From the NCBI GenBank assembly GCA_048938105.1, contig JBHLMN010000012.1, positions 141,158-205,157 of the forward strand: 64,000 nt of DNA, in the 5' to 3' direction. The position numbers were made by a program, and so were the translations under genes. The first letter of the stretch is position 1; every line of letters starts with the position of its first letter. Of the stretch, positions 57,471 to 63,880 are shown in pieces. The notes below the pieces were generated by a model. That model was not told where the DNA came from, did not search any database, and was given only the letters and a program-made list of their open reading frames with translations. The stretch comes from Promethearchaeota archaeon (GTDB lineage Archaea; Asgardarchaeota; Heimdallarchaeia; Hodarchaeales; Hodarchaeaceae).

Positions 57471-58151
57471 TCATTTCGGTTTCTTTGCTTTCAACTTGGT
57501 TTTGGGGATTTTAGCCTTTATATCCTCAAAAATAGGTGGTGGAGTAATTTTTTTCTTCACAGGGGTTTTCATGTGAATTTTTGGGGGTGGAGGTTGGTTA
57601 ATTGAAGTTTTATTTTCCTTTTTTCCTCCCATTATGGGATGTTTATTTGAGCCTTTTTTTGGTATTTTCCTTTGAATTTTTGGGGGTGGTCTATTGACTG
57701 TGTTTGATAAGGCTTTTTTTGAATGAACTACTCCTGTTGACCGAGGTATCGTATTAATTTTGTTAATCTGTTTAGGAACTGGTGTTTTCTTATTTAGAGC
57801 TGACTTTTTACTAGTACTATTTGGAATTAATCCTTTATTTGAGGGAGATTTCGCTTCATAAGGAACAGATTCCTTTATTGGAGGAAGAGTAGATTTAAAA
57901 GAATCTTTTTTATTTTGGTCAAAACTCCCATGGTCTGAGGGTAGTTTTACCTCATCCTTTGCGATTCCTCCTCTCTGCTTCGGTGGAGGAAGTTCAAATG
58001 ATTCAACATCATATTTTTCAGGTGTCTTCTGTTTGATTTCTTGTTCTCTAGAACTCACGGGAATTTTACTCTTGATTTTGTCACTAGGTTTTTTCTCGCG
58101 TATTTTTTGTCTGGCCAATGTATTCTCAGAATCCTTGACTGGGTTTATCAA
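57471..58151 (-). CDS. Lys/Pro-rich low-complexity protein
   Basis: Repeated PPPK/PPPI motifs; no hydrophobic core; TTG start; last gene of the co-directional ubiquitin cluster. Confidence 0.55.
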   Translation of the reverse strand: MINPVKDSENTLARQKIREKKPSDKIKSKIPVSSREQEIKQKTPEKYDVESFELPPPKQRGGIAKDEVKLPSDHGSFDQNKKDSFKSTLPPIKESVPYEAKSPSNKGLIPNSTSKKSALNKKTPVPKQINKINTIPRSTGVVHSKKALSNTVNRPPPKIQRKIPKKGSNKHPIMGGKKENKTSINQPPPPKIHMKTPVKKKITPPPIFEDIKAKIPKTKLKAKKPK

Positions 58152-58222: not shown

Positions 58223-58822
58223 TTATCGACTTAATAAAAATCCTATTCCTGAAAAAAGAAAGAATAATCCATATAGAACTCCAATTAAATCAAAAATGAT
58301 AAATCCTGTTAATAGGAATAAGATACCAAATACAAAAAATGTGAAAAGTGCTGTCCATTCAGCAGATGGTCCTCTCTCCGATTGGGAGGTTAATCTAATG
58401 AATTTATATCGTGTGAAACTTCTTATCAAAAGTGCTGTGGATACTGCAAGGTAAGGAAATGCTAAAATTGATGCGAGTGTTATTCGAAGCTGAATAAAAT
58501 CCTCAGCTGGTAAAATCTCGATATTAAATGTTAATAATGCTTCTTGTCCAGGAGGGAAAAGAGGACTAGTGAGTAATACGCATAATGGAATGATATTTGC
58601 CAATGAAAAGAAGTATATTTCATTTAACGTAGCTTTTACGTCTATATAGTATAATAGTCTTAGGAAATAAAAGATTGTGATCGTTGTATAGAATGTTAAA
58701 AATACTAGACTTAATGCGATATTATCCTCATCTCTAATGAAAAAGAATATACTTGCAGCGAGACCCATGAGGAATACAAAATACGCAATTGAATGTCGTG
58801 AAACGATCCTGATTACCTCCAA
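58223..58822 (-). CDS. About 6-TM membrane protein overlapping the RING gene
   Basis: Six hydrophobic segments; start overlaps the RING gene end by 10 nt. Confidence 0.7.
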   Translation of the reverse strand: MEVIRIVSRHSIAYFVFLMGLAASIFFFIRDEDNIALSLVFLTFYTTITIFYFLRLLYYIDVKATLNEIYFFSLANIIPLCVLLTSPLFPPGQEALLTFNIEILPAEDFIQLRITLASILAFPYLAVSTALLIRSFTRYKFIRLTSQSERGPSAEWTALFTFFVFGILFLLTGFIIFDLIGVLYGLFFLFSGIGFLLSR

Positions 58823-59967
58823 CGACTGTTTAGATGATTATTTTGATACATTTTAATTAATTTCTCATAACTTTTCCCCGAAAGCCGATACATTTTCTCT
58901 GTTGAAAGTGGTTTATTGCAGCGGGAGCAGATATTCGCCACACTCAACCATTTCTCCAGTTCATGTGAATGTGCTGGGTGTCCGCAGTGGGGGCATATGA
59001 CAACTCGTTTGTTTGCCTCTGTAGGAAATTCATAACAAAAAATACAACGAAAATCATCATCTGTTAAATGTTGTCCTGCAGGTATGAGTTTTGAAAGAAT
59101 TGCTGGAGGTATTTTTTCAATACGAGTGATATTAACCCCTGTATCTATTCCTGGAACAATATTCACTAAATTATGAGTTGTAGGGCGTGTTCTGATTATT
59201 GTTTGAGCTGAAGTTGGTCGCACTACTGTTGATAGACCACTTCGAGAAGGTTCTAGTTGTCTACTTGGTGAAGAAGGTGTTTGGGGTGCTCTGCTTCGAC
59301 TAGTTTGTCTAGTTAAAGAACGTTGGGGTCTCCTCACAGGTATTCGACGGATTGGGACTAAGATAATCTTTAGTACATAATGTTGCAGAAATAAAATAAA
59401 ACTTATTGATACAAATCCTAATCCACTGAGCTCTATGGATCCTGTTTCGATCCAATAGAAGCTTAAAATTAAAATCATCCCAAAATTATATATAATAACT
59501 AATTCATTTTGATACTTCTTTCTAAAGACGAATATTACTGGATAACGACCAGAATAATATTTTCGGATGAGTAATAATAGGAAAATGAAGGGTGGTAATA
59601 CAAAAACTATACTGAATAGATTTAGAAATAAAAAAAATCTATCTATGTTGAGAAAATTAATGTTAAGTGTCATTTCAAGAAGAGATGTTTGAAAAAAACC
59701 TTCTTCTCCTAATGATGCGTGTTGAGTGAGAAATGTTCCCCCTAATGCAACTAATGATGGAATTAAGATGAATAATGCAGAGGCGATTGGTGCATTAAAA
59801 CGTTGAAAGTATTGCCACTCATCAAGAAATTTAATGGATAATACGATTACTAAAGTAATATAAAGAATGGTTAGGGCTACTTCTGTTTGTTGTTCAGTAA
59901 TTAATGTGAGTACCACGAAAACGAATCCTACTACACAAATGGAAAGATAAACATTTCGTCTATCCAA
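58813..59967 (-). CDS. Polytopic membrane protein with C-terminal RING-type zinc finger (putative E3 ligase)
   Basis: About 6 TM, R/P/S/T-rich linker, CIFC-x13-CPHCGHPAHSHELEKW-x6-CSRC; in an operon with E1/E2. Confidence 0.8.
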   Translation of the reverse strand: MDRRNVYLSICVVGFVFVVLTLITEQQTEVALTILYITLVIVLSIKFLDEWQYFQRFNAPIASALFILIPSLVALGGTFLTQHASLGEEGFFQTSLLEMTLNINFLNIDRFFLFLNLFSIVFVLPPFIFLLLLIRKYYSGRYPVIFVFRKKYQNELVIIYNFGMILILSFYWIETGSIELSGLGFVSISFILFLQHYVLKIILVPIRRIPVRRPQRSLTRQTSRSRAPQTPSSPSRQLEPSRSGLSTVVRPTSAQTIIRTRPTTHNLVNIVPGIDTGVNITRIEKIPPAILSKLIPAGQHLTDDDFRCIFCYEFPTEANKRVVICPHCGHPAHSHELEKWLSVANICSRCNKPLSTEKMYRLSGKSYEKLIKMYQNNHLNSRWR

Positions 59968-59985
59968 CTAGATTTCAACCTCACA

Positions 59986-60894
59986 TTATTTTTCATGGTC
60001 ATATTCTAGAAACATACGGCCTTTCTCCCTTGTGAGGGGAAGTAGCGTATTGATCATTTCAGGAAGACTTTCTAAGGGACAATTCAATACTCTATAATGA
60101 GGTTCTTCCCATGTCTTCATATCTTCCTTTAAACGAAAGATCTTGAACCCATAAGAACTACTGGATATCTTTGTAGGGTCAATAACCAAAGCAATGGGGG
60201 CAGTAATTTGTGAATTCCGTGCCCCAAGCCGTTGATATCGAACTTGAGTCTTATAATCCGTTTGACTCATGAATGCTCCATATGAAGGATGAGAATGGTA
60301 CCATCCAAGAATAATCTGGTTTTTATTATGAGATTTAATCTCATTATATACTCTAACCATGGATTGTGGGTCGTGAATTTGAGTATTCACATTTGTTCCA
60401 TGCCCTATAGGAAAAGCATCTTCAATAACTAAACAGGCTAATGGAGTATCATTACTTTCTATATGGCCTGTAAGAAGTCCAATCACTTCTATCCAATCTC
60501 TTTGGGGTACATCTGGATTTGCATACTTCAACGCATGTAAGGCTAGTTTAATATAAGCTTTAAGATGAATTTTCACTCGAGAAGGTTCTGATTCTGGATT
60601 TAAATCATTCAAACTTAAATCAACACTTTCTAAGTCCTCTAAAATTCCATTCTGTTCCTCTCTTTGAGTAAGTTCGGATTTAGGAATAATATTTTCATCT
60701 AGTCTTAAAGAAATTAGATCAGAAGGTTTTATCTTTATTTTTTTGTCTCTTAAAGTTTCAAACCCTGTATTAGGCTGATAATTGAAAGCAGGGAATTTTA
60801 ATGTAAAAGAGAAAGTCTCAGGATCAAAGGTTAACGCAAGGTCTCTAAGTAATATCTCGAAAATATTTTGCAGATCCTTTTTCTCTTTTGACAT
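59986..60894 (-). CDS. JAMM/MPN+ metalloisopeptidase (Rpn11-like deconjugase)
   Basis: EVIGLL...GWYHSHPSYGAFMSQTD, ALVIDP; N-terminal extension of about 100 aa. Confidence 0.92.
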   Translation of the reverse strand: MSKEKKDLQNIFEILLRDLALTFDPETFSFTLKFPAFNYQPNTGFETLRDKKIKIKPSDLISLRLDENIIPKSELTQREEQNGILEDLESVDLSLNDLNPESEPSRVKIHLKAYIKLALHALKYANPDVPQRDWIEVIGLLTGHIESNDTPLACLVIEDAFPIGHGTNVNTQIHDPQSMVRVYNEIKSHNKNQIILGWYHSHPSYGAFMSQTDYKTQVRYQRLGARNSQITAPIALVIDPTKISSSSYGFKIFRLKEDMKTWEEPHYRVLNCPLESLPEMINTLLPLTREKGRMFLEYDHEK

Positions 60895-60925
60895 CTTCTA
60901 AACCATCACTTATGAATCCTGACTC

Positions 60926-61453
60926 TCACCACTTCTTATTTGCATATTTTTTGGTAATTTTGTGAGCCTTTTTAATGAAATTCTTCCTGTTGCTCAAATA
61001 TTCTTGAGCTGCCTTTTTGTTGAATACATCATGAGGATTTGTATAAGCCGTATCAACATTAAACATAGCAAGGATGGAATAGATTATTGTACCAATGTTT
61101 TTTGATGGAGACCAACCATCTGGTCTTCCAATTAGATCAGGGTCAACAAGCGCTAAGCAAATATTCCGTTTTCCCTTATATTCATCAGGTTTCGGCCAAA
61201 AGTTCGGATGCCAGATGGGTGTATGTAAACGAACAAAAGGGGGAGAATAGGGATAATTTGGGCCAAATTTTATTTCTAATTTGAATTTTCCTTTCTCGTA
61301 CGGAGTTCCTTTAGGCCCCTCAAGAAGGACTGCAAGGTGCTCTACCGATTTTTTCCCGCCTGGGAATGCTTTTAGTTGTTTGATGGTTTTTTGCTTATAT
61401 AACTTCTTTAATTGATTATAATCATCAGCAATCCTTTTAATGCGTATTGACAT
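60926..61453 (-). CDS. Ubiquitin-conjugating enzyme E2
   Basis: GPKGTPYEKGKF, YPYSPP, WHPN...ICL, WSPS, N..AA. Confidence 0.93.
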   Translation of the reverse strand: MSIRIKRIADDYNQLKKLYKQKTIKQLKAFPGGKKSVEHLAVLLEGPKGTPYEKGKFKLEIKFGPNYPYSPPFVRLHTPIWHPNFWPKPDEYKGKRNICLALVDPDLIGRPDGWSPSKNIGTIIYSILAMFNVDTAYTNPHDVFNKKAAQEYLSNRKNFIKKAHKITKKYANKKW

Positions 61454-61469
61454 GTAAGTGCACCTCTTT

Positions 61470-62720
61470 TTAGTTAATTTTTAGTGTTAAATAGATCTGA
61501 GTACCATCCTCAAACCCTGTGATTAAAATTGTCTCGTGGTTTCGAATTTTAGCCTCAAAAAGGCTTAAGTTCCAATCAACCTCACTAACCTCTGAAGAGT
61601 CAATACGAAAGACACTCGGAGGGAATTCTGGGTCGATTTGGAGTTTTTTTCCTTGAGCTAATTTCGTAATGATTTTCTTCAATTGAAATTTTGATTTTAC
61701 CTTTATTTTGTAAAGAGGGGTACGAGTATTACCACACATGGTACAATCTGGATTCCGTGGTTTTTCCATCTCATAGAATTTTCCAGTTAGTCCATTATAA
61801 ATTACATAATTAAGTTGAAGAGAACCTAATTTCTTTTCATTTTCGGGAGTGTGTAGATGGTGAAGGATTTTCACAGCTTCTTGAGATTGTAATGAGGCCA
61901 TTACGCAATTAATGGTGATTACAGTAGCTTCATGATTATCAACTATTTGAATAACCTGATCTGTCGAGAATGGTTGAGATACTGGAAAATGGACTTTAAG
62001 TAAGGTATTTGCGTGTTCCTTAACTTCATTGATTTCATTCGGTTTCAATATATCAACTGGCCGGCCATGATTCTGTTCAAATTGTAGTTGCCCTTTTAAT
62101 ATACAATGTGCAGGTTTACGTGGCACACCAACTAATGTACAAGCTCCTAACTGATCTTGTTCGCGTTCTGTTAATGGATCGCATTCTAAACAAGCGTTAC
62201 TGAAAGGAAAAACGCAGTAGACGTGGCCATTATAAGCTGCTGTTCCTGCATCAATTAAAGGTTTATGATTGTGAACAGCTCTTCGATTTAGTTCCGATCG
62301 GGCCTCAATTGAGTCTAAACCTGCGATATAGAGATCCGCTTCATGATAGAGATGGGGTGGAAGGTCTTGCAGAGCACAATTATATGCTTCAACTGTAATA
62401 AAAGGATTCATTTCTTGAAGTCGTTTAGCAGCGAATTTCGCCTTAGAAATTCCTTCTGATGCTCCAATAAATAGTATTTGTCGGTTAAGATTGGAATATT
62501 CGACCGTATCAAGATCCACTAAGATTAATTTTCCAACACTGACCATTGCTAAATTTTTCGCAACTTCTACGCCAAGTCCACCAATCCCAGCAATTAGAAT
62601 AGTACTTTCTTTTAATGTTTCTTGTCGCCATCCTGGGAGGCGAAATTGGCGATCAAAACGTCGCTTTTCTTCGTCAGTAAATTTTCCACTCGTGAAATCT
62701 GATACACTTGACATTTTCAC
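61470..62720 (-). CDS. Ubiquitin-like activating enzyme E1 (Uba2/Uba3-type catalytic-Cys insert)
   Basis: RFDRQ, GIGGLG, DLDTVEYSNLNRQ, CLEC and CTMC zinc pairs, GACTLVGVPRKPAHCI catalytic motif, C-terminal UFD-like segment. Confidence 0.92.
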   Translation of the reverse strand: MKMSSVSDFTSGKFTDEEKRRFDRQFRLPGWRQETLKESTILIAGIGGLGVEVAKNLAMVSVGKLILVDLDTVEYSNLNRQILFIGASEGISKAKFAAKRLQEMNPFITVEAYNCALQDLPPHLYHEADLYIAGLDSIEARSELNRRAVHNHKPLIDAGTAAYNGHVYCVFPFSNACLECDPLTEREQDQLGACTLVGVPRKPAHCILKGQLQFEQNHGRPVDILKPNEINEVKEHANTLLKVHFPVSQPFSTDQVIQIVDNHEATVITINCVMASLQSQEAVKILHHLHTPENEKKLGSLQLNYVIYNGLTGKFYEMEKPRNPDCTMCGNTRTPLYKIKVKSKFQLKKIITKLAQGKKLQIDPEFPPSVFRIDSSEVSEVDWNLSLFEAKIRNHETILITGFEDGTQIYLTLKIN

Positions 62721-62735
62721 TCAACTTCAATATCT

Positions 62736-63074
62736 CTATCCAGCTGTTGAAACAGGGATGATCAAGCACTCTAAACCATTCTCAATATCATAATTAGATA
62801 ACACATCATCTCTATCTAGGGTACGACCACTGATAGAGATGTGAAAATCCTGTGGATCAAGACCGAAAATTCCTCCAAGTGTTTCTTTTAATTCTGAAAC
62901 GCCCATTTCAGGATCAACTGTGAGTTTTTCTAGCTTTTCACCTGGACCTATTGTCGATCTAAAGAACAGTGTTATATGGGTTCCACTAGGTACTTTAGTT
63001 CTCATTTGTGTTTCTACGATCTCTTCTTCTTCTTCTTCGATTTCCAATTCATCAAAATCCTCATTTTCAGACAT
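62736..63074 (-). CDS. Ubiquitin-like protein 2 (acidic N-tail, C-terminus STAG)
   Basis: Beta-grasp pattern VSELKETL...SGRTLD...LSNYDI.NG; ATG at 63074 with GGAGG 8 nt upstream; terminal Gly then TAG. Confidence 0.88.
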   Translation of the reverse strand: MSENEDFDELEIEEEEEEIVETQMRTKVPSGTHITLFFRSTIGPGEKLEKLTVDPEMGVSELKETLGGIFGLDPQDFHISISGRTLDRDDVLSNYDIENGLECLIIPVSTAG

Positions 63075-63250
63075 TGAATAATCCTCCATTCCAATTTCTT
63101 CTGTTGGAAGCATTTTAGTACATTTAATGTAGTAAAAAAGCTTTATAGGACGGTTTTTTACTGGTAAATAAATATCTGTTTCAATCATTTTAATTATTCC
63201 TAATTAATGTATGATTTCATTTTCAAGGAATTTTGAAAGTAGAAATCGTG

Positions 63251-63454
63251 CTAGACATAAATTTCATTGGGGGAAATAGCTTCAAGGGACTGAAGAATCC
63301 AAAGATTTGCCCGTATATAATAATCGATTGACGAGATAATAATGTCTAGATCATTTCTAGACCCTTGGTGTATTTTTTGATTCTTCTTTACCTTTTCACG
63401 TTCATACATTGCATTAACTATTGACTTGACGAGACTCTCATTTATAGCTGTCAT
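63251..63454 (-). CDS. Small 67-aa hypothetical protein between the two Ubl genes
   Basis: MTAINESLVKSIV...; ATG at 63454 preceded by AGAGGGG. Confidence 0.45.
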   Translation of the reverse strand: MTAINESLVKSIVNAMYEREKVKKNQKIHQGSRNDLDIIISSIDYYIRANLWILQSLEAISPNEIYV

Positions 63455-63532
63455 TCGATAACCCCTCTTAGGAAATGAGAAAGAAAGGATGAGAATTTTC
63501 TCTCTGTTTAAAAACATGAGAAAGAAAATCGT

Positions 63533-63880
63533 TCATCCTGCTGTACTGTGGGGAATCAAAAGAATTTCGTCACCATTATCGATTCCATAGTCACCAATTG
63601 GAGCTGACTCATCTAAAGTGCGACCAGCGTGGCTTAAGTGGAAATCATTGGGATTCAAGCCAAATATATTGGCTAAGGTGTCTCTGACATCTCTAACTGG
63701 TGTATTTTCACCTACACTGAGTTTTTCGGTTCGTTCAGGTCCAACGGTAGATTTAAAAAATACATTCTTTTTTGGTCCTGAAGCAATGCCTGATACTGGG
63801 GTTTTAGATTGTGTAGGGGTTTTAGATTGGATTGTTGTCTGTTCTTCTACATCGAAGTCTAAATCTTCAAAATCACTCAT
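63533..63880 (-). CDS. Ubiquitin-like protein 1 (acidic N-tail, C-terminus STAG)
   Basis: PVRDVRDTL...HAGRTLD...IGDYGIDNGD.ILLI; terminal Gly then TGA. Confidence 0.88.
   Translation of the reverse strand: MSDFEDLDFDVEEQTTIQSKTPTQSKTPVSGIASGPKKNVFFKSTVGPERTEKLSVGENTPVRDVRDTLANIFGLNPNDFHLSHAGRTLDESAPIGDYGIDNGDEILLIPHSTAG

What the first reader, a model, noticed from the sequence alone, without database searches (positions are those of the whole stretch)
62736..63880. Two paralogous Ubls ending in -STAG lack the Ile44, Lys48 and Lys63 equivalents
Seen: both align gap-free with ubiquitin from Gly47 to Gly76. Position 44 is Ser, 48 is Arg, 63 is Asn and 75 is Ala in both proteins. The stop codon follows the terminal Gly, so no maturation is needed. 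Known: GG is the norm, single-Gly ends occur in UFM1, Atg8 and Atg12, and Ile44/Lys48 drive proteasomal recognition. Inference: these are a separate modifier class, probably non-degradative or mono-conjugated and orthogonal to GG-ubiquitin. The pair may be used sequentially or on different substrates.
Basis: partly seen in the sequence, partly recalled or inferred. Interest (0 to 1): 0.82.

Follow-up and report, generated by a model that had tools for sequence, protein, structure and literature searches.

The report
Asgard ubiquitin-like tags ending Ala-Gly
Two neighbouring genes of a Hodarchaeales-type Asgard archaeon encode ubiquitin-family protein tags whose reactive tail always ends Ala-Gly instead of Gly-Gly; they head their own E1-E2-protease-membrane-ligase operon, beside two ordinary Gly-Gly ubiquitin systems in the same genome.

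Summary
Both genes encode beta-grasp ubiquitin-family proteins that end ...P[H/V]STAG followed by a stop codon. Their ubiquitin-equivalent positions are 44 = Ser, 48 = Arg, 63 = Asn and 75 = Ala.

They belong to a large family found only in Asgard records:
- I collected 112 proteins, and the family was found in 123 of 300 Asgard genomes scanned.
- Ala-Gly is invariant and no Gly-Gly variant occurs.
- About 60% of members carry short, unconserved tails after the Gly.
- Four members are head-to-tail polyproteins joined exactly at STAG, so that Gly is the processed, reactive end.

The pair heads a conserved operon: Uba1/Uba3-like E1, HPN-type E2, Rpn11-like JAMM and a membrane RING protein. The E1's distribution mirrors the tags' (118 genomes have both, 5 only the tag, 1 only the E1). 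The genome also holds a canonical Gly-Gly ubiquitin/ESCRT cassette and a third Gly-Gly Ubl cassette. All three lie on one chromosome in closed relatives.

A separate, dedicated modifier class is therefore well supported. "Mono-conjugated or non-degradative" is not: several lysines are conserved. No conjugation has been shown.

This scan has already met the family in at least 8 other genomes. I found no paper describing it. It is a new variant of a known kind.

The parts
63533..63880 (-). Ubl2, 115 aa. It has a disordered acidic N-terminal tail (MSDFEDLDFD...KSKTP), a beta-grasp domain and the C-terminus LLIPHSTAG followed by a stop. It belongs to the 'H-type' clade.
   Evidence: ORF. PF00240 scores 32.4 bits against a cut-off of 25.4. 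In the AF2 model residues 37-110 have pLDDT above 90 and residues 1-31 below 50. Fold matches are Caldiarchaeum Ub, NEDD8, ISG15, SUMO and Ub. Clade support is 96/99.
63251..63517 (-). Small ORF between the two Ubl genes (88 aa; the conserved part is about 67 aa from MTAINE). It is probably not a core part of the system.
   Evidence: No Pfam hit. It is open and 41-67% identical in four same-genus genomes, largely deleted in one and absent in the Heimdall locus L015/L016.
62736..63074 (-). Ubl1, 112 aa from the conserved start MSENEDF. It has an acidic tail, a beta-grasp domain and the C-terminus LIIPVSTAG followed by a stop. It is a paralog of Ubl2 (49% identity over 94 aa).
   Evidence: Translation. 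The start is conserved across the genus while the upstream ORF extension is not. PF00240 scores 22.4 bits, below the cut-off. BLASTP to Ubl2 gives 9e-28. It sits in its own clade with 100/98 support.
61470..62720 (-). E1-like activating enzyme, 416 aa. It has a ThiF adenylation domain, an invariant A-C-T motif (candidate catalytic Cys194), two CxxC zinc motifs and a C-terminal domain of about 90 aa.
   Evidence: PF00899 at 1e-52. The nearest solved chains are UBA1 (4e-33), UBA3 over nearly its full length (3e-28) and SAE2; UBA5 reaches only 1e-13. The phyletic profile matches the Ubl's.
60926..61453 (-). E2-like conjugating enzyme, 175 aa, with an HPN motif and a Cys in ...RNICLAL.
   Evidence: PF00179 at 6e-27. 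The nearest solved chains are UBE2T, UBE2L3 and UBE2R2. The motifs are read from the translation.
59986..60894 (-). Rpn11-like JAMM metalloprotease, 302 aa, with an HSHPSYGAFMSQTD motif and an N-terminal extension of about 100 aa without a known family.
   Evidence: PF01398 at 3e-15. The nearest solved chains are the Caldiarchaeum Rpn11 homolog (3e-13), Rpn11 and CSN5.
58813..59967 (-). Polytopic membrane protein with a C-terminal RING-like zinc finger (CIFC...CPHCGHPAH...CSRC), the probable E3.
   Evidence: Only sub-threshold RING Pfam hits, E 0.016-0.05. Orthologs with the same motif follow the JAMM gene in Heimdall (L015) and Loki (L012) loci.
58223..58822 (-). Membrane protein of 199 aa that overlaps the RING gene's end. 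It is conserved downstream in the Heimdall relative.
   Evidence: The ortholog is at L015 13652-14236. No Pfam hit.
57471..58151 (-). Lys/Pro-rich basic protein of 226 aa, conserved at the operon's end in the Heimdall relative. Its role is unknown.
   Evidence: The ortholog is at L015 14374-15030. No Pfam hit.

Best explanation
Ubl1 and Ubl2 are two old paralogs of an Asgard-specific subfamily of ubiquitin-family modifiers. The subfamily is defined by the tail [LI]-I-P-x-S-T-A-G and by a disordered acidic N-terminal extension (DFEDLDF...KSKTP).

Proposed mechanism (inferred, not shown):
1. The terminal Gly of -STAG is the reactive end.
2. In relatives that encode extra tail residues or head-to-tail polyproteins, the operon's Rpn11-like JAMM protease exposes that Gly. 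Here it is encoded ready-made, and the JAMM would serve mainly to remove the tag.
3. The operon's single Uba1/Uba3-like E1 adenylates the Gly and takes it onto Cys194.
4. The E1 passes it to the HPN-type E2.
5. The membrane-embedded RING protein directs transfer to lysines of targets at the cell membrane.

The neutral P-x-S-T-A-G tail replaces ubiquitin's basic LRLRGG. A conserved Ser replaces the Ile44-patch residue that the Asgard ESCRT-I UEV domain needs. Together these would keep the pathway apart from the genome's canonical Gly-Gly ubiquitin/ESCRT cassette and from a third Gly-Gly Ubl cassette.
For: Fold and family:
- The AF2 model is a beta-grasp with pLDDT above 90.
- Foldseek's top hits are Caldiarchaeum ubiquitin, NEDD8, ISG15, SUMO and Ub.
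- VIA-align gives Z 14.9 (rmsd 1.3, 77 aligned) to the ISG15 C-terminal domain and Z 13.0 to Ub.
- PF00240 is hit by 60 of 60 family members.

The Gly is the reactive end:
- A and G are invariant.
- None of the 112 members collected, which were picked by the AG motif, also carries the GG form of it.
- 69 of 112 have unconserved tails of 1-12 residues, which differ even within the genus (none, YY, SIN, IYY, I, FDF, WR, WN).
- Four proteins are tandem polyproteins joined exactly after STAG (P0083 with 3 units, P0084, P0002, P0016).
- One fused pair sits directly upstream of E1 and E2.

Dedicated enzymes:
- The Ubl-E1-E2-JAMM-membrane RING order is conserved in Heimdall and Loki contigs.
- Of 300 Asgard genomes, 123 have the Ubl and 119 the E1. 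By my count of the listed genomes, 118 have both, 5 only the Ubl and 1 only the E1. Family-level tallies are nearly identical, and there is one E1 even where there are 3-5 Ubl copies.
- The E1 is nearest to UBA1/UBA3/SAE2, the E2 to UBE2T/L3 and the JAMM to CsRpn11/Rpn11.

Parallel systems:
- The own genome has a ...RTTGG+ST ubiquitin with E1, E2, small RING and UEV/Vps28, and a ...IKGG Ubl with E1, E2 and JAMM.
- The E1s are 31-39% identical to each other and the E2s about 30%.
- All three Ubl types lie on the single contig of the one-contig same-genus genome G255, and are likewise all matched in one-contig G240.

UEV patch: Hatano et al. 2022 (PMC9192718) showed that Heimdall ubiquitin binds UEV through V45, the Ile44 equivalent. 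The canonical Ub here keeps Val at that site; the STAG family has Ser in 93%.

Predicted E1-Ubl complex: weak support only.
- The score is 0.56 against a best control of 0.00.
- The mark was reached by 58 of 80 solved complexes and 2 of 110 mismatched pairs. At 0.60 or under it was reached by only 7 of those 80 and by both mismatches.
- The runs agree in at least 77% of contacts and the partner's pLDDT is at least 86.
- E1-Ubl complexes are solved, so the pass may come from memory.
Against:
- Ubl1 alone scores below Pfam's ubiquitin cut-off (22.4 against 25.4 bits).
- The RING assignment rests on sub-threshold Pfam hits.
- Orthogonality between the three cassettes is inferred from sequence divergence and tail chemistry, not tested.
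- In ubiquitin itself, changes at Gly75 impair E1 and DUB use (my own knowledge). An Uba1/Uba3-like E1 accepting Ala-Gly is therefore plausible only if its pocket has adapted, and I could not examine that.
Confidence: 0.75

Rival explanations
1. These are simply this lineage's ordinary ubiquitin orthologs. Ala-Gly is a neutral variant of Gly-Gly, and the three cassettes share E1s, E2s and targets rather than forming insulated pathways.
For: The proteins fall in PF00240, and their nearest structures are ubiquitin-type. The enzymes are canonical E1, E2 and Rpn11 types. NCBI already labels relatives 'ubiquitin-like domain-containing protein'.
Against: - None of the 112 family members has GG in place of AG, which is not what a neutral variant would show.
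- The canonical Ub with Gly-Gly, Val44 and Lys48 equivalents exists separately, next to ESCRT-I genes.
- The STAG Ubl and its E1 co-occur genome by genome and lie adjacent.
- The E1 paralogs are only 31-39% identical.
Confidence: 0.12
2. The family is the archaeal counterpart of a eukaryotic single-Gly modifier such as UFM1. It may be the 'Ufm1 homologues' reported from structure searches in nine Asgard clades (PMC12962969).
For: - The end is a single Gly preceded by a non-Gly residue.
- The tail form I-P-x4-G and the longer beta1-beta2 loop resemble UFM1 as I recall its sequence; this is memory, not a test.
- The ligase is membrane-anchored, as the UFM1 ligase is at the ER.
- That paper notes hits with 'multiple hit regions' and partial-length hits, which would fit the tandem and fused forms seen here.
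Against: - Pfam Ufm1 (PF03671) matches 0 of 60 family members at E up to 10, nothing in the own genome and 0 of 200 Asgard genomes.
- No UFM1 chain is among the 50 best Foldseek or VIA-align matches.
- The E1 is far closer to UBA1/UBA3 (1e-33 to 1e-28) than to UBA5 (1e-13).
- The E2 is a UQ_con enzyme with an HPN motif, unlike UFC1.
- The protease is a JAMM, not a UFSP-type cysteine protease.
Confidence: 0.05
3. The proteins are not conjugated. They act as sulfur carriers of the ThiS/MoaD type, or as non-covalent ubiquitin-like adaptor domains.
For: The E1 has the ThiF fold shared with MoeB and ThiF. Three of 60 members give weak ThiS hits. Some relatives carry the domain at the end of larger proteins: a HerA-like ATPase and a CDC48_N plus VWA protein.
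Against: - Sulfur carriers end in Gly-Gly; here the end is Ala-Gly.
- The operon carries an E2, a JAMM and a RING protein, which sulfur transfer does not need.
- No rhodanese domain was found on the E1.
- Polyprotein and tail-bearing precursors point to a processed, reactive C-terminus.
- Even the fused forms keep the domain at the very C-terminus, ending in xAG.
Confidence: 0.05

Closest known systems
Candidatus Caldiarchaeum subterraneum ubiquitin operon (CsUb, E1-like, E2-like, small RING finger protein, CsRpn11), reconstituted in vitro (PMC5654768, PMC6043591)
   Same: - The gene set is the same: a ubiquitin-family tag, a single-chain E1, an HPN-type E2, a RING protein and an Rpn11-like JAMM in one cluster.
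- CsUb and the CsRpn11 homolog are the best structural or sequence matches of Ubl2 and of the JAMM.
- Precursors with C-terminal tails are removed by the JAMM in Caldiarchaeum, and tails are present in most STAG relatives.
   Different: - The tail ends Ala-Gly, not Gly-Gly.
- Ser sits at the Ile44 position.
- There is a conserved acidic N-terminal extension.
- There are two paralogous tags per operon, and 3-5 per genome in Loki-type relatives.
- The RING sits on a polytopic membrane protein rather than being a small soluble protein.
- Tandem polyprotein precursors exist.
Canonical Asgard ubiquitin linked to ESCRT-I (Heimdall AB125 ubiquitin; Hatano et al. 2022, PMC9192718)
   Same: It occurs in the same genome and has the same fold. 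It likewise has its own E1, E2 and RING nearby.
   Different: - The canonical protein ends ...GG plus 2 residues.
- It keeps the Val44 and Lys48 equivalents.
- It lies next to UEV/Vps28 genes.
- The STAG tags lack the patch residue that UEV binding needs, and they sit with a membrane RING and a JAMM instead.
Eukaryotic SUMO
   Same: - Both have a disordered N-terminal extension carrying lysines.
- Neither has an Ile44-type patch.
- Thr sits three residues from the end (SUMO ...QTGG against ...STAG).
- The Rad60-SLD profile is hit by 50 of 60 members.
- SUMO chains are among the fold matches at Z about 12-13.
   Different: - SUMO ends Gly-Gly.
- SUMO uses a heterodimeric E1 and Ubc9.
- Ubl2's Rad60-SLD score (23.3) is just under the cut-off (23.8).
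- No specific orthology is shown.
Single-Gly eukaryotic modifiers UFM1, Atg8 and Atg12
   Same: The reactive Gly is preceded by a non-Gly residue, and each modifier has a dedicated cascade.
   Different: Those modifiers use non-canonical E1s (UBA5, ATG7) and E2s without HPN. Here the E1, E2 and protease are of the canonical ubiquitin type. The Ufm1 profile does not match.
Eukaryotic polyubiquitin genes
   Same: Some relatives encode 2-3 head-to-tail units with a short cap after the last one (P0083, P0084, P0016).
   Different: - The units are diverged paralogs (about 60% identical), not identical repeats.
- Each unit keeps its own N-terminal extension.
- This genome encodes the two units as separate genes.

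Membership tests
Ubiquitin family (Pfam PF00240, beta-grasp) | Beta-grasp fold | tested here: met
   In the AF2 model residues 37-110 have pLDDT above 90 with the element order beta-beta-alpha-beta-(short helix)-beta. Foldseek probability is 1.00 to CsUb, NEDD8, ISG15, SUMO and Ub. VIA-align gives Z 13-14.9.
Ubiquitin family (Pfam PF00240, beta-grasp) | Profile score over Pfam's gathering cut-off (25.4 bits) | tested here: met
   Ubl2 scores 32.4 bits. Ubl1 alone scores 22.4 bits, which is below the cut-off, but it is 49% identical to Ubl2. All 60 aligned family members hit PF00240 at E up to 10 (best 3.5e-10).
Conjugated (type I) ubiquitin-like modifiers | C-terminal Gly that is free or exposed by processing | tested here: met
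   A stop codon follows the Gly in both genes. The Gly is invariant in the family, and tails and polyprotein junctions begin right after it.
Conjugated (type I) ubiquitin-like modifiers | Di-glycine end (ubiquitin, NEDD8, SUMO, ISG15, SAMPs, CsUb) | tested here: not met
   Ala precedes the Gly in all 60 aligned members, and the GG form of the motif occurs in none of the collected proteins.
Conjugated (type I) ubiquitin-like modifiers | Covalent attachment to targets through E1 and E2 thioesters | not testable with these tools
   Only context is available: adjacent E1, E2, JAMM and RING genes, and a weak-support E1-Ubl complex prediction (0.56 against 0.00).
Archaeal eukaryote-like ubiquitylation operon (Caldiarchaeum/Asgard type) | Clustered Ub-like tag, E1-like, E2-like, RING and Rpn11-like JAMM genes | tested here: met
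   All five lie co-directionally at 58813-63880. The same order is seen in Heimdall and Loki loci. The RING is identified by motif and by sub-threshold Pfam hits only.
UFM1 system | Match to the Ufm1 profile (PF03671) | tested here: not met
   It matches 0 of 60 family members at E up to 10, nothing in the own genome and 0 of 200 Asgard genomes.
UFM1 system | UBA5-type E1 and UFC1-type E2 (no HPN motif) | tested here: not met
   The E1 is nearest to UBA1/UBA3/SAE2 at 1e-33 to 1e-27, against 1e-13 for UBA5. The E2 is PF00179 with an HPN motif.
UFM1 system | Closest structural neighbour is UFM1 | tested here: inconclusive
   No UFM1 chain is among the 50 best rows of Foldseek or VIA-align. A family that is not listed is not thereby excluded.
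SUMO family | Rad60-SLD/SUMO profile over the cut-off, and a TGG end | tested here: not met
   Ubl2 scores 23.3 bits against a cut-off of 23.8 and Ubl1 scores 17.0. The end is TAG, not TGG.
ThiS/MoaD sulfur carriers | Gly-Gly end, partner E1 with sulfur-transfer context, no E2 or E3 | tested here: not met
   The end is Ala-Gly. E2, JAMM and RING genes are in the operon. There is no rhodanese hit on the E1. ThiS profile hits are weak, in 3 of 60 members only.

The most novel reading that the evidence does not exclude
The Ala-Gly tail is itself the specificity code of a third, membrane-directed modifier pathway. That pathway was already separate from Gly-Gly ubiquitin before eukaryotes arose. 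One E1 loads several paralogous tags, and these build mixed chains through the conserved lysines of their N-terminal KSKTP tails, in a SUMO-like manner. Tags are made either singly or from polyubiquitin-like precursors cut by the Rpn11-like JAMM. If so, multi-modifier complexity, polyprotein precursors and membrane-bound RING ligases would be archaeal inventions rather than eukaryotic ones.
Probability: 0.3. Interest if true: 0.75.

Novelty: new variant of a known kind. Interest (0 to 1): 0.6.

Why it matters
[quoted passage not shown] The published work I could search treats 'the' archaeal ubiquitin as a single Gly-Gly modifier.

This genome, and closed genomes of the same genus, carry three parallel cassettes. 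One of them is built on an invariant Ala-Gly tag that is widespread in Heimdall-, Hod- and Loki-type lineages. This bears on two questions:
- When did the split into several non-cross-reacting modifiers happen?
- Do membrane-bound RING ligases and polyprotein precursors predate eukaryotes?

There is also a practical point. The last Arg or Lys lies 28 residues before the end of both tags. Standard tryptic K-epsilon-GG remnant proteomics would therefore never see these conjugates.

Tried and rejected
- UFM1 link. The Pfam Ufm1 profile found nothing in the own genome, in 200 Asgard genomes or in 60 family members. No UFM1 chain appears in the top 50 fold matches. I did not type a UFM1 sequence from memory for a profile-profile test. 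The 2026 paper reporting Asgard 'Ufm1 homologues' has no supplements held, so I could not tell whether it means this family.
- ESM Atlas look-up. It returned only archaeal ubiquitin-like clusters and added nothing new.
- Longer Ubl1 ORF (150 aa). I considered it the true gene and rejected it. The extension is not conserved beyond the closest relatives, and a stop sits directly upstream of MSENEDF in one same-genus genome.
- Polyprotein context. P0083 and P0084 lie on contigs of about 1.2 kb, so their neighbours are unknown. Only P0016 could be placed next to an E1 and an E2.
- Literature. Five full-text searches found no paper describing Ala-Gly-ended Asgard Ubls, their polyproteins or the membrane RING. 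The library is incomplete, so this is not proof of absence.
Full report
**What is there**

On the minus strand at the very end of the contig lie nine co-directional genes:
- Ubl2 (63533-63880)
- a small ORF (63251-63517)
- Ubl1 (62736-63074)
- an E1 (ThiF, 1e-52)
- an E2 (UQ_con, 6e-27)
- a JAMM protease (JAB, 3e-15)
- a polytopic membrane protein with a C-terminal RING-like finger
- a second membrane protein
- a Lys/Pro-rich protein

The window is G000:C63:141158-205157, and the locus fetched from this contig stops at 205157. Only 120 bases upstream of Ubl2 are therefore available. Names given to close relatives place the organism among Heimdall/Hodarchaeales-type Asgard archaea.

**Checking the observation**

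Both proteins end ...IP[H/V]STAG directly followed by a stop codon. A global alignment to a ubiquitin unit taken from a database polyubiquitin needs only one 2-3-residue insertion, in the beta1-beta2 loop. It is gap-free from Ub residue 11 to 76. It gives 44=Ser, 48=Arg, 63=Asn, 75=Ala and 76=Gly in both proteins, and HMMER's own alignment agrees.

The longest Ubl1 ORF (150 aa) over-reads. The start conserved across the genus is MSENEDF at 63074 (112 aa), and the upstream extension is not conserved beyond the nearest relatives.

**Fold**

With a 60-sequence alignment, AlphaFold2 gives a confident beta-grasp for residues 37-110 (pLDDT above 90) and a disordered N-terminal 31 residues. Foldseek's best matches are Caldiarchaeum ubiquitin (6fno, 6fnn, 6fj7), NEDD8, ISG15, SUMO1 and ubiquitin. 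An exhaustive VIA-align search gives Z 14.9 (rmsd 1.3, 77 aligned) to the ISG15 C-terminal domain, Z 13.0 to ubiquitin and Z 12.8 to a plant SUMO.

**The family**

A word-indexed search and an exhaustive HMMER search returned many relatives. Every relative that a source names comes from an Asgard archaeon. Among the proteins fetched:
- 112 carry [LIVM][LIVM]Px[ST]xAG, and the GG form of that motif occurs in none of the proteins collected.
- 43 stop at the Gly, and 69 go on for 1-12 unconserved residues, most often two.
- Within the genus the tail differs from genome to genome (none, YY, SIN, IYY, I, FDF, IK, WR, WN), while STAG never changes.
- Four proteins are head-to-tail polyproteins whose units join exactly after the Gly. 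P0083 has three diverged units plus a VL cap.
- One such fused pair lies directly upstream of an E1 and an E2 in a public assembly.

Conservation that stops dead at one Gly, variable caps and polyprotein junctions are the signature of a processed, reactive C-terminus, as in ubiquitin precursors.

In the family alignment L75, G86, L107, I109, P110, A114 and G115 are invariant. Ser at the Ile44 position is 93% conserved. Position 48 is Arg in 82% and never Lys. Position 63 is Asn or Asp.

Lysines are nevertheless conserved at three places:
- K53, in 95% of members
- the Ub-K27 equivalent, in 82%
- the N-terminal KSKTP motif, in 82-83%

Loss of the Lys48 and Lys63 equivalents therefore does not argue for mono-conjugation.

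**The pair**

Ubl1 and Ubl2 are 49% identical. They fall in separate, well-supported clades: 96/99 for the PHSTAG group and 100/98 for the Ubl1 group. A third group comes from Loki-type archaea. The tree has few columns, so only these starred branches are used. Sixteen of the 17 same-genus genomes with a match in the scan hold at least two copies, and the pair is tandem in all 13 same-genus loci read that show both genes. A neighbouring family has one copy, and Loki-type genomes have 3-5.

**The enzymes**

- E1. The nearest solved relatives are UBA1 (4e-33), UBA3 over almost its full length (3e-28) and SAE2. UBA5 (1e-13) and ATG7 (4e-6) are far behind. Its orthologs keep the GxGGxG motif, an A-C-T motif with Cys194 and two CxxC pairs invariant.
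- E2. It has an HPN motif and a Cys (in ...RNICLAL) 13 residues after it. It is nearest to UBE2T, UBE2L3 and UBE2R2.
- JAMM. It has the HxHx7Sx2D motif and is nearest to the Caldiarchaeum Rpn11 homolog and to Rpn11/CSN5.

The gene order Ubl(s)-E1-E2-JAMM-membrane RING recurs in a Heimdall assembly and in a Loki-type contig. In the Loki contig an insertion sequence has split it.

Across 300 Asgard genomes the tag was found in 123 and this E1 type in 119. By my count of the listed genomes, 118 have both, 5 only the tag and 1 only the E1. Neither was found in several large families (0 of 76, 0 of 19 and 0 of 11 of those searched). There is one E1 per genome even where there are several tags. Related genomes are not independent, so this is a pattern and not a statistic.

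A predicted E1-Ubl complex gave weak support only:
- The score was 0.56 against a best control of 0.00.
- The mark was reached by 58 of 80 solved complexes and 2 of 110 mismatches. At 0.60 or under it was reached by only 7 of the 80 and by both mismatches.
- The runs agree in at least 77% of contacts and the partner's pLDDT is at least 86.
- Similar complexes are solved, so the pass may reflect memory.

**Parallel systems**

The same genome holds two further cassettes:
- A canonical ubiquitin (...RTTGG plus ST, with Val and Lys at the 44 and 48 equivalents). It lies beside an E1, and an E2, a small RING protein and UEV/Vps28 genes are nearby.
- A Ubl ending ...IKGG, with its own E1, E2 and JAMM.

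The three E1s are 31-39% identical and the E2s about 30%. In G255, a one-contig genome of the same genus, all three tag types lie on that one contig, and all three are also matched in one-contig G240; bin contamination does not explain the coexistence.

Hatano et al. showed that Heimdall ubiquitin binds the ESCRT-I UEV domain through V45, the Ile44 equivalent (PMC9192718). A conserved Ser at that site predicts that the STAG tags do not use that route. This is inference.

**Comparison with known systems**

The closest known system is the Caldiarchaeum Ub/E1/E2/small-RING/Rpn11 operon, which was reconstituted in vitro and whose Rpn11 trims a Gly-Gly precursor (PMC5654768, PMC6043591). The differences here are:
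- the Ala-Gly end
- Ser at the Ile44 position
- the acidic, Lys-bearing N-terminal extension
- two or more paralogous tags per E1
- the membrane-embedded RING
- polyprotein precursors

A UFM1 link was considered because of the single-Gly end, and because a 2026 paper reports structure-based 'Ufm1 homologues' in nine Asgard clades (PMC12962969). Every test I could run spoke against membership. Whether that paper means this family could not be settled, because no supplements are held. SUMO-like traits are resemblances only: the disordered Lys-bearing N-terminus, Thr at position -3 and Rad60-SLD hits in 50 of 60 members.

**Novelty and verdict**

Five full-text searches found no description of these features. 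Earlier notes of this scan describe the same family in at least 8 other genomes, and my results agree with them.

It is a real, conserved feature and a new variant of a known kind of system. Its function as a conjugated modifier is well supported by context but not demonstrated.

Noticed in passing
window 63251-63517 (-): A small ORF lies between the two Ubl genes (88 aa; the conserved part is about 67 aa from MTAINE). It has no Pfam family. It is open and 41-67% identical in four same-genus genomes, mostly deleted in another and absent from the Heimdall locus L015/L016. Nucleotide identity (about 75-77%) exceeds protein identity, so constraint on it looks weak.
   Followed up: partly
L050 2383-3129 (GCA_046703885.1 contig): A fused Ubl-Ubl gene (...PQSTAG|AGDDFEDF...PHSTAG+LN) sits directly upstream of E1 and E2. 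Its first unit carries an in-frame TGA at the position equivalent to Ub Lys6 (NVYF*STIG). This could be a sequencing error, a pseudogene or read-through.
   Followed up: partly
P0116, P0167, P0183, P0089 (database proteins): The same Ubl domain, ending ...SRAG, ...SHAG+5 residues, ...STAG+1 residue and ...STAG respectively, occurs at the very C-terminus of larger proteins. These are a HerA-like ATPase (564 aa), CDC48_N plus VWA proteins (about 570 aa) and a protein with a weak Roadblock-like hit. Whole proteins may be attached as tags, or the gene calls may be fused.
   Followed up: partly
L012 4116-6681 (Loki-type contig): The operon is interrupted between E1 and E2 by a 443-aa gene and a DDE transposase fragment. 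The E2 is split into pieces of 110 and 46 aa.
   Followed up: no
G000:C11 (L010 6330-18602) and G000:C38 (L011 3767-9816): The genome has two further ubiquitin-type cassettes. On C11: a Gly-Gly ubiquitin with E1, E2, a small RING protein, UEV/Vps23-like and Vps28-like genes, and small GTPases. On C38: a ...IKGG Ubl, E1, E2, JAMM, a 264-aa zinc-ribbon protein and a 588-aa multi-zinc-finger protein.
   Followed up: partly
window 59986-60894 (-) and 60926-61453 (-): The JAMM protease has an N-terminal extension of about 100 aa with no known family. The E2 has 13 residues between HPN and the presumed catalytic Cys, more than the roughly 7-9 I recall for typical E2s.
   Followed up: no
window 63533-63880 and 62736-63074 (-): The last Arg or Lys lies 28 residues before the C-terminus in both tags (R87 in Ubl2, R84 in Ubl1). 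Trypsin would leave a very long remnant on modified lysines, and standard di-Gly remnant proteomics would miss these conjugates.
   Followed up: no
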